Notes under the pieces: model-generated
What the model was told of the DNA's origin: nothing
Databases searched by the model: none
The model's input: the letters and a program-made list of their open reading frames with translations, nothing else
Source of the DNA: Eledone cirrhosa
Taxonomy: Eukaryota
NCBI GenBank assembly: GCA_964016885.1
Contig: OZ024746.1
Span: forward strand, 88,164,001 to 88,228,000
Direction: 5' to 3'
DNA: 64,000 bases
Part shown: positions 47,304 through 49,523 of the stretch, one piece after another
How positions within the stretch are numbered: position 1 is the stretch's first letter
Layout of the letters: every line of letters starts with the position of its first letter
Program-made: the position numbers and the translations under genes

Positions 47304-49523
47304 ATGGAATTCTTTAAGATTACTTCCTCTCTAAAAGACATACCTCTACCTAGAAACAAAGACTTTGTAAAACAACTAATAGATAAATCTGACTCTTTTA
47401 TAAGGAGAATCAGGTGGCGTGCATTCCACTTTGATAAATCTAATGCAGACGAAAATATCTCGGACTTAAACAAAGTTTTCAAATCTAAAAGAAATCCACC
47501 CCCTAACAAACTTTTATCTGACTTTGAAAACGATATAATTTCTATCATACAAGGGGTCAAATTCAAGAGAAACTTTAAAGGCCAGGAATATCTGAAAGGC
47601 ATTAAGGATAACATTGAGAGCTTAGAGAAAACTGAGAAGATCTTGGTGAAATCTGACAAGACCAACAACCTCTATGGAGTGCGGAAAGACATGTATAATG
47701 GCCTCATACTGAAAGAGCTGAGGAAAAAATACAAGGTAGCAGATAAGGCCGAACTTGAGAAAATGAATGTTGAAGCATCTTGTATAATGCATGAGTTGGA
47801 AATTGAGAACAGAACACAACCTTTCGTGCCCAGGAAACCGAAGATCAATATGAAGGACCACAAGAGGAATTTTGAGATTGACCTGCCAGTTAGATTGATC
47901 GCACCTTCAAAATCGGACCTGGGCAAATTAAGCAAAAACATTCTTGACAGGGTGATACTGCAAATTAAGAACTTGGATTGTGTATCTAACCTGAGCTTGT
48001 GGAAGGGAACTGGAGAGGTTGTTGAGTGGTTTAGGCAAATTAAATATGACAATAATAATAGGTTTATTCAACTTGATATAGCTAACTATTATTCTTCTAT
48101 TACCCCTAGTCTACTAAATAAGGCACTAAATTACGCATTCAAACATACGGACCTAACTAGCAAAGAAATGCATATTATATTATCGGCTAGGAAAACTTTG
48201 ATAGAATTTGATGACAAATTATGGACCAGAGCAGATAGAGATAGCAATTTTGACATAACTATGGGATCTTCCGACTCAGCTCAGGTAACTGACCTTGTGG
48301 GCTTATTTTTAATCAATTCGCTACATAGGAAAATACCTGGTACTACCGGAGGTTTATATAGGGATGACATGCTTTTACTTATTAATAATAATAACCCTGA
48401 ACTAAATAGAAAATGTAAACAAATTACAAAATGTTTTAATTACTTTAACCTTAAAATAGAAATTGAGAAAAACCATAGAATAGTCAATTTCCTAGATATA
48501 ACATTAAATCTCAACACATGTCTCCACTATCCTTTTCACAAGTTGAATGAAAACTTAAACTATGTCAACTTTAACTCTAACCACCCCAGATCTGTCAAAA
48601 ACACTATAGTAAACTCAGTCCAAAAACGTATCTCTAGGATCTCGTCGAATAGAAAGATTTTTGACGAAAAGGCCCAATACTACAATGATGCACTAGCTAG
48701 GGCAGGGTATGCTGATAAGATTGTGTACATAGATAATGATAAACAAACTAAACAAAGTAACAACTTTTTTAATTACGGCAACAACATTAACAACTATAAT
48801 AGAAAGCATTACAATAATTCCAAAGGACAAAAAAGAAATAGAACTAGGAACATAATTTGGTTTGCCCCCCCCCCCCCTTTCTCACTAAACATTAAAACCC
48901 ACATCGCTAAATTATTTTTCAAAGCTCTTGATAATCGCTTCCCTAGAACACATAGGTACCACTCAATCTTCAATAGGCATACAATTAAATTAACCTACTC
49001 ATCCACCAAAAATTTAGCACAAAATATTAATAGAATAAATAATAGGAACTTAAAACCTACTGATAATAGCATAAATAATATACAAGTTAACAAATGTAAC
49101 TGTAGAGATAGATCTAAATGTCCGTTAAATAACAACTGCTGAGTTAAAAATATAGTATACAATTGTAATGTTAATACTGACTCTAATTCTTTTAACTACG
49201 TCGGTTCCACATCGACGGAATTTAAACTTCGCTATAATAACCACAAGAATTCTTTCACAGATCCAAATAAAAAATCTTCAACGGCACTATCAGGGGTACT
49301 CTGGCAACTTAAGCTAGATAACGTTAGATATTCGACGGCTTGGAATATAGTCTCAAGAGGGATTCCTTTTAATTCATCCTCTGAGACATGTGACCTCTGC
49401 GCAGAGGAGATATTCTTTATACTAAAATCTAAAAATTCCCTTAACCTACGGACAAATTTATTCAGTTGTTGCAAACATAGATTAAACTCAACGTTTAAAT
49501 ATAAATTTAAATTTAAAATGTAG
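47304..49523 (+). CDS. Penelope-like element (Naiad-type) RT + GIY-YIG endonuclease ORF, interrupted by one in-frame TGA at 49140-49142
   Basis: The 612-aa ORF has PLE RT motifs (KDHK..PVRLI, FIQLDIANYYSSI, FDITMGSSDSAQVTDLVGL, GGLYRDD, VNFLDITL, SNHP), the WFxPP linker and CNC-x5-CPL-x3-C. Reading past the TGA gives 126 more open codons: VKNIVY..YVGST..FKLRYNNH..TALS..W..CDLC..E..LN..CKH, ending at TAG 49521-49523. Confidence 0.93.

What the first reader, a model, noticed from the sequence alone, without database searches (positions are those of the whole stretch)
47304..49523. Naiad-type Penelope ORF whose only lesion is one in-frame UGA between the Cys motif and the GIY-YIG nuclease
Seen: 612 open codons, then TGC-TGA-GTT, then 126 open codons encoding a complete GIY-YIG domain, for 739 codons in total. 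Established: Naiad PLEs from some spiders and clams have been reported to use in-frame UGA as selenocysteine with SECIS elements. Inference: this could be Sec insertion, regulated readthrough giving RT-only versus RT+EN products, or a recent CGA/TTA>TGA mutation in a young copy. Against recoding, the UGA follows the last Cys of CNC-x5-CPL-x3-C rather than replacing a Cys, the +4 base is G, and I could not see a convincing SECIS by eye.
Basis: partly seen in the sequence, partly recalled or inferred. Interest (0 to 1): 0.75.

Follow-up and report, generated by a model that had tools for sequence, protein, structure and literature searches.

The report
Broken Hydra-clade Penelope retrotransposon copy
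This is an ordinary damaged copy of a young, abundant animal jumping gene: its single internal stop codon is found in this one copy alone, where sister copies encode leucine, so it is likely a one-off mutation and not a selenocysteine or readthrough signal.

Summary
The ORF (47304-49523) and its single in-frame TGA (codon 613, 49140-49142) are real. The recoding idea fails. TGA occurs at 1 of 816 genomic sites with these exact flanks, the window itself. All 29 + 39 + 65 sister copies read at the site encode Leu. In homologues the column is variable (Leu 43 of 77) and follows an invariant Cys that is intact here. No SECIS-like fold passed my descriptor or Rfam. The element is not a Naiad: Naiads have an N-terminal nuclease, while this one has RWR, DKT, a CxCx5C linker, a C-terminal nuclease without CCHH, a 3' hammerhead motif and (TA)n flanks, the published Hydra-clade profile (PMC8557442). 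The TGA is not the only change: there are two more private substitutions, a C7-to-C13 run and no upstream direct pLTR. Of 38 full-length sisters 22 have open ORFs and five are cut by their own nonsense changes. An assembly error is not excluded. The scan has already noted Hydra-clade elements at other places in this genome.

The parts
46848..47272 (-). Inverted, 5'-truncated copy of the element's 3' end (fold-back arm), joined directly to the 5' end of the main body; its hammerhead core carries a G>A change
   Evidence: 95.8% match over 431 columns to 50743-51165; core change
47273..47303 (+). Short remnant of the 5' leader; the direct upstream pLTR seen in most sisters is absent
   Evidence: Junction comparison; at least 34 of 39 sisters have a direct upstream piece over 120 nt ending at the unit end
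47304..49139 (+). Codons 1-612: Penelope-like RT (RWR 37-39, DKT 118-120, YRDD 352-355), thumb, and CxCx5C linker (598-606) with Cys612
   Evidence: Translation; 91 homologues at E<=1e-10, found with an intact sister's protein; column conservation. No Pfam family matched this part
48865..48877 (+). C13 homopolymer, in frame; C7 in most sisters; adds two Pro to the conserved WFxPPF motif
49140..49142 (+). Private in-frame TGA (codon 613); Leu codon TTA in sisters
   Evidence: 1 of 816 exact-flank sites; Leu in all sisters read
49143..49523 (+). C-terminal GIY-YIG endonuclease (IVY..YVG) with CxxC and CxH motifs and no CCHH; ends at TAG
   Evidence: (weak Pfam match, E=0.034)
49524..51248 (+). 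AT-rich 3' UTR and pLTR, about 1.7 kb, with simple repeats; no SECIS-like fold found
51050..51117 (+). Predicted hammerhead ribozyme motif (8-bp stem I, CUGAUGA core, long stem II, GAAA, palindromic stem III)
   Evidence: Descriptor match, 0 of 300 UTR shuffles match; identical in 67 of 79 occurrences in sister loci. Not found by Rfam; the free MFE fold does not adopt it
46341..46847 (.). (TA)n array flanking the 5' side
   Evidence: Sequence
51249..52170 (.). (TA)n array flanking the 3' side (continues beyond)
   Evidence: Sequence; composition

Best explanation
This is one young copy of an abundant Hydra-clade Penelope-like retrotransposon, and its TGA is a change of a leucine codon (TTA in sisters) found in this copy alone, which likely arose at or after insertion and would cut off the nuclease. 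Shown: the stop is private, the family encodes Leu here, and the family has many open copies under purifying selection. Inferred: an intact sister supplied RT and nuclease; the nuclease nicked a (TA)n tract; reverse transcription made the 3.98-kb body plus a 425-nt inverted 3' arm; the copy then took neutral hits (three private substitutions, one of them nonsense, and a C-run expansion). It lacks the upstream pLTR that holds the start site in Penelope and Chlamys-3, so it is probably not transcribed from its own promoter. If translated it would give a 612-aa RT without nuclease.
For: TGA at 1 of 816 exact-flank sites; the first 100 listed are 99 TTA and 1 TCA; a shorter 18-nt pattern also hits only the window. 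Leu in 29 of 29, 39 of 39 and 65 of 65 sisters read at the site (sets overlap by a few loci; 1 further arm did not reach the site), including subfamilies 84-89% identical. In 39 full-length ORFs, private substitutions are 61 missense, 31 silent, 8 nonsense, and shared ones 22, 34, 0 (Fisher p=0.026 for nonsense, p=0.0004 for silent). This is the pattern of dead-on-arrival decay on top of a selected lineage. 22 of 38 full-length sisters are open; 5 are first cut by their own nonsense codon, 2 of them with no other frame-breaking lesion. The chance of a nonsense among three private changes is 9-22%. Homologue column 613 is Leu 43, Arg 8, Gln 8, Met 5, Cys 4 (five commonest of 77), while Cys612 is 77 of 77. 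Raw reads of two other samples read T in 373 of 376 and 250 of 251.
Against: Independent support that the G exists in DNA is thin. No listed contig of three runs bridges the site with G, and only one raw read of run X17 appears to match it, so an assembly error remains possible. The sister sets were the best BLAST hits to the window (40 of 1297 and 40 of 1077 candidates scored), so the 22-of-38 figure is biased towards young copies. The exact-flank count misses copies with changes in the flanks. No expression data were seen.
Confidence: 0.87

Rival explanations
1. The G at 49141 is a consensus or polishing error of the assembly, and the real copy has TTA.
For: The allele is unique in the assembly. 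No listed contig in runs X1, X3 or X5 bridges it (13 of 15 records shown). The copy lies between long (TA)n arrays.
Against: Assemblers collapsing repeats would be expected to pull bases towards the family majority, not away from it (inference). Sisters carry 2.6 private substitutions on average, the window 3. One X17 read appears to match the G, though one read in about 200 could be a sequencing error. Contigs drop rare variants, and these runs may come from other individuals or a related species.
Confidence: 0.1
2. The UGA is decoded as selenocysteine, as in the spider and clam Naiads.
For: Precedent in four Naiad families (PMC8557442 section 8). The codon sits beside the zinc-finger-like linker.
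Against: In those families the UGAs are in the consensus, number three or four, nearly all replace conserved Cys, and have a grade-A SECIS beside the stop. Here the UGA is in 1 of 816 sites, replaces Leu, is single, and the Cys before the GIY-YIG motif is an ordinary TGC. My SECIS-like descriptor found 2 raw motif hits at one site (49549; 3 of 9 pairs, -1.1 kcal/mol), none passing. Rfam gave 0 matches at E<=10.
Confidence: 0.01
3. Programmed stop-codon readthrough sets an RT-only to RT+EN ratio.
For: The stop falls neatly between the linker and the GIY-YIG core.
Against: A programmed signal would be fixed in the replicating lineage; it is absent from 815 of 816 sites and open sisters encode one fused protein. 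Seventy-eight codons of this ORF are one substitution from TGA, so the position needs no special cause. The +4 base is G rather than the C recalled as favouring readthrough (own knowledge).
Confidence: 0.02

Closest known systems
Hydra clade of C-terminal EN+ Penelope-like elements (Craig et al. 2021, PMC8557442; e.g. Hydra-1_Obim, Penelope-n_HM)
   Same: Single RT-then-EN ORF; RW(K/R), DKT, CxCx5C linker, no CCHH, CxxC and CxH around the conserved E and N, 3' hammerhead motif, (TA)n insertion, inverted 5'-truncated arm.
   Different: Unit of about 3.98 kb with a 1.7-kb 3' UTR, against 'generally <3 kb' (1,080-3,045 bp in the paper's table, complete and incomplete models). Hammerhead stem II region of 31 nt, longer than the Hydra examples in the table. 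This copy is broken by a private stop. No direct sequence comparison with Hydra-1_Obim was made; its listed hammerhead sequence differs.
Selenoprotein-encoding Naiads (Naiad_Smim, Naiad_Sdum, Naiad_Scon, Naiad_Mmer; PMC8557442 sections 8 and 16)
   Same: Penelope-like element with an in-frame TGA near a Cys-rich linker before the GIY-YIG motif; (TA)n preference is shared with some Naiads.
   Different: Naiads have an N-terminal EN, DKA, CX2-5CxxC and CCHH motifs and no canonical hammerhead; their UGAs are family-wide, multiple, at conserved Cys, with a SECIS. None of this holds here.
Argonauta hians hypothetical protein Ahia01_000737600 (P0002)
   Same: Closest named database homologue: 39% identity over 98% of the sister protein, E=3e-155.
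   Different: Has Arg at the column after the last linker Cys; distant family.

Membership tests
Naiad PLE | N-terminal GIY-YIG EN before the RT | tested here: not met
   EN lies in the last 126 codons; no GIY-YIG match in codons 1-612
Naiad PLE | DKG motif modified to DKA | tested here: not met
   DKT at 118-120; T in 60 of 68 homologues
Naiad PLE | CX2-5CxxC linker and CCHH motif in EN | tested here: not met
   No CX2-5CxxC match; one Cys (621) between IVY and YVG, Ala in 63 of 76 homologues
Naiad PLE | Insertion-in-fingers domain in RT | not tested
   No Naiad reference sequence was available to align
Selenoprotein Naiads | UGA fixed in the family consensus | tested here: not met
   1 of 816 sites
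Selenoprotein Naiads | UGA at a conserved Cys column | tested here: not met
   Column 613 is Leu 43 and Cys 4 of 77; sisters have Leu
Selenoprotein Naiads | SECIS element just after the stop codon | tested here: inconclusive
   None found by my descriptor or Rfam. SECISearch3 was not available, my descriptor had no positive control, and Rfam also missed the hammerhead
Hydra clade PLE | Single ORF with C-terminal GIY-YIG EN | tested here: met
   22 of 38 full-length sisters have one 737-738-aa ORF
Hydra clade PLE | N-terminal RWK motif | tested here: met
   RWR at 37-39; K 37 and R 19 of 61 homologues at the third position
Hydra clade PLE | DKT motif | tested here: met
   DKT 118-120
Hydra clade PLE | CxCX5C linker in place of CX2-5CxxC | tested here: met
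   CNCRDRSKC at 598-606
Hydra clade PLE | No CCHH; CxxC and CxH flanking the conserved E and N | tested here: met
   C696-D-L-C699, E702, N714, C723-K-H725
Hydra clade PLE | Canonical hammerhead motif near the 3' end | tested here: met
   Descriptor match at 51050-51117, 0 of 300 shuffles; spacer longer than the published examples, cleavage untested, MFE fold differs
Hydra clade PLE | Insertion into (TA)n | tested here: met
   (TA)n arrays on both sides
Hydra clade PLE | Length generally under 3 kb | tested here: not met
   Unit 47270-51252, about 3.98 kb. The paper gives this as a tendency, not a diagnostic
Hydra clade PLE | Grouping with Hydra references in an RT phylogeny | not tested
   Reference proteins from the paper were not available as tool sequences; assignment rests on motifs

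The most novel reading that the evidence does not exclude
This single copy is a recoding site being born: it is transcribed from a neighbouring promoter, the new UGA between linker and nuclease is partly read through or given selenocysteine, and it makes both RT-only and RT+EN protein. It would be the first such case in a C-terminal-EN Penelope element known to me.
Probability: 0.02. Interest if true: 0.55.

Novelty: new member of a known kind. Interest (0 to 1): 0.1.

Why it matters
As a recoding candidate it does not matter: it is a private stop in one of over 800 sites. What is left is modest. It documents a recently active Hydra-clade family (mean pairwise ORF difference 0.96% among 39 close copies, some identical) with an unusually long 3' UTR. 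It also shows a C-run in a conserved thumb motif that often changes length and frameshifts copies. Had the UGA been family-wide, it would have extended selenoprotein transposons beyond Naiads.

Tried and rejected
Selenocysteine and readthrough: rejected on copy counts and column conservation. Naiad label: rejected on domain order and motifs. Rfam scan of 46800-51300 found nothing at E<=10, not even the hammerhead, so it is a weak negative. Pfam found no family for the RT part. Repeat search over 44000-54000 was swamped by (TA)n and was redone on 46800-51260. Idea that long C-runs come from in-frame source elements: rejected; in 49 long runs with the usual 3' flank (of 66 arms read; the others had changed flanks or short runs) 16 are in frame, the one-third expected by chance, and arms of one insertion often differ (16/11, 18/11, 11/12, 7/14, 7/9; equal in 13/13, 14/14). 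Sequencing runs: no RNA holder listed. Read test of the G allele inconclusive. L100 was left out of the 38 full-length copies because its alignment split. Literature: two searches; only PMC8557442 held all of 'Naiad', 'Penelope-like', 'selenocysteine'. Look-up of earlier findings by sequence gave nothing.

Full report
Observation. The frame 47304-49523 reads 612 codons, TGA at 49140-49142, 126 codons and TAG. The context is TGC-TGA-GTT. The last 126 codons have a weak GIY-YIG match (E=0.034, below the curated cut-off). The RT part has no Pfam match, but the protein of an open sister copy finds 91 homologues at E<=1e-10 among 7,997 candidates scored, the best at 40% identity over 99% of its length.

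Is the stop shared? A search of the own genome (3.0 Gb) with 49000-49400 scored 40 of 1,297 candidates; 39 were one mismatch from the window. In the 29 sister loci fetched, that mismatch is 49141 and the codon is TTA. An exact 28-nt pattern with TGA hits 1 site, the window. The same pattern with any codon hits 816 sites; the first 100 listed are 99 TTA and 1 TCA. A shorter pattern again hits only the window. Thirty-nine loci chosen by the 5' end all have TTA. Of 66 arms chosen by a long C-run, including subfamilies 84-89% identical, 63 have TTA, 1 CTA, 1 TTG and 1 does not reach the site. These sets overlap by a few loci and some are two arms of one insertion. Leu is therefore the family state, and the stop is private.

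Is a private stop surprising? No. Of 38 full-length alignments (L100 dropped, alignment split), 22 are open, 5 are first cut by a nonsense codon and the rest by indels. Across 39 ORFs, private substitutions are 61 missense, 31 silent and 8 nonsense; shared ones are 22, 34 and 0 (p=0.026 and 0.0004). Random point changes would be nonsense in 3.0-4.7% of cases. The observed 8% is not significantly above 4.7% (p=0.15) but is above 3% (p=0.01). The window has three private substitutions against a mean of 2.6, and its nearest sisters differ at 10-12 positions. These copies were picked as best hits, so they are the young end of the family.

Does the site look like selenocysteine? In the four selenoprotein Naiads the UGAs number three or four, all but one replace conserved Cys, including the Cys before the GIY-YIG motif, and a grade-A SECIS lies 1-21 bp after the stop in three of them (PMC8557442, passages and section 16). 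Here that Cys (612) is TGC and invariant in 77 of 77 homologues, while column 613 is Leu 43, Arg 8, Gln 8, Met 5, Cys 4. My SECIS-like descriptor, an approximation without a positive control, found two raw hits at one site (49549) with 3 of 9 pairs and none passing; shuffles gave 0.81 raw hits on average. Rfam gave no match, a weak negative since it also missed the hammerhead.

What is the element? Naiads are defined by an N-terminal nuclease (abstract). The Hydra clade has a C-terminal nuclease, RWK, DKT, a CxCX5C linker, no CCHH, CxxC and CxH beside the conserved E and N, canonical hammerheads and (TA)n targets. The window protein has RWR, DKT, CNCRDRSKC, CDLC..E..N..CKH and no CCHH. A hammerhead descriptor matches 51050-51117 and 0 of 300 shuffles; the motif is identical in 67 of 79 occurrences in sister loci, though the free minimum-energy fold does not adopt it. 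(TA)n arrays flank both ends. The paper's table lists a cephalopod member, Hydra-1_Obim. The assignment rests on motifs; I ran no phylogeny with reference proteins. The unit is about 3.98 kb, longer than the Hydra models listed. The closest named homologue is from Argonauta hians, so the host is probably a cephalopod (inference).

Anatomy and other lesions. 46848-47272 is an inverted copy of 50743-51165 (95.8%), the fold-back form described for these elements. At least 34 of 39 sisters have a direct pLTR upstream of the ORF; this copy has none, and the inverted arm joins 31 nt before the ATG. In Penelope and Chlamys-3 the start site lies in the pLTR, so this copy likely lacks its promoter (inference). 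The C-run at 48865-48877 is 13 long, against 7 in 29 of 39 sisters; it adds two Pro where all 91 homologues have a gap. Genome-wide, 474 sites have exactly C7 with both flanks and 209 have at least C10 after the 5' flank (the patterns differ, so the ratio is rough). Raw reads show lengths from 6 to 15, so the variation is not only assembly noise. Long runs show no frame bias (16 of 49) and often differ between arms of one insertion, which fits slippage at or after insertion.

Real mutation or assembly error? Two raw-read runs read T at 373 of 376 and 250 of 251. At 100% likeness no listed contig of three runs bridges the site with G (13 of 15 records shown), and the depth table of X17 implies one read matching across it. 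One read fits either a sequencing error or the one-in-800 allele, and whether these runs are the same species as the assembly is not shown. This stays open; either way the recoding reading fails.

How it most likely works. Shown: the family has many near-identical open copies under purifying selection, and this copy's stop is private. Inferred from the known Penelope mechanism: an intact element's nuclease nicked (TA)n DNA, target-primed reverse transcription made the body and an inverted 3' arm, and the copy has since decayed. It would at most make a 612-aa RT without nuclease.

Sources. PMC8557442: abstract, passages, sections 16 and 20, supplement part 2 of 59 and a term search; the supplementary alignments and SECIS figure were not seen and could refine the clade comparison. 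PMC13282606: three passages; it reports recently active Penelope-like elements in Octopus vulgaris and does not use the words Hydra or Naiad. Two searches found no other paper on selenocysteine in these elements. Earlier unreviewed scan notes report Hydra-clade elements mislabelled as Naiad, and a long-armed hammerhead, elsewhere in this genome; my clade reading was made before that look-up.

Verdict. Ordinary: a new, damaged member of the Hydra clade with a private nonsense change. Interest 0.1.

Noticed in passing
window 48865-48877 and family-wide: The C7 run in the conserved WFxPPF thumb motif is a frameshift hot spot: 209 sites have 10 or more C (10-20 in those read), 7 of 39 close sisters are out of frame here, raw reads confirm length variation, and arms of one insertion often differ. 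Ordinary slippage after insertion is likelier than stuttering by the RT, but the two were not separated.
   Followed up: partly
window 51050-51117 (+) and about 46896-46963 (-): Hammerhead motif with a 31-nt stem II region, longer than published Hydra examples; the copy in the inverted arm has a changed core. One diverged variant in a sister locus has a different stem II sequence that can still pair.
   Followed up: partly
window 49524-51248: 3' UTR of about 1.7 kb makes the unit about 3.98 kb, longer than the Hydra models in PMC8557442. Copies end at two preferred points, about 51165 and about 51250.
   Followed up: partly
window 44503-45093 (-): A separate Penelope-like GIY-YIG fragment (Pfam E=7e-5, above cut-off) with a CX4CxxC linker and apparent CCHH residues, so a different clade (Neptune- or Naiad-like); no tblastn match to the Hydra ORF.
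   Followed up: partly
window 28381-29817 (-): Several short overlapping frames that by eye look like a frameshifted Penelope-like RT, different from the Hydra family; not tested.
   Followed up: no
window 33968-35903 (+): Short frames that by eye resemble the ORF1 and endonuclease start of a LINE; not tested.
   Followed up: no
L068 and L069, codon 143: Two sister copies have different nonsense codons (TAG and TAA) at the same Tyr codon.
   Followed up: no
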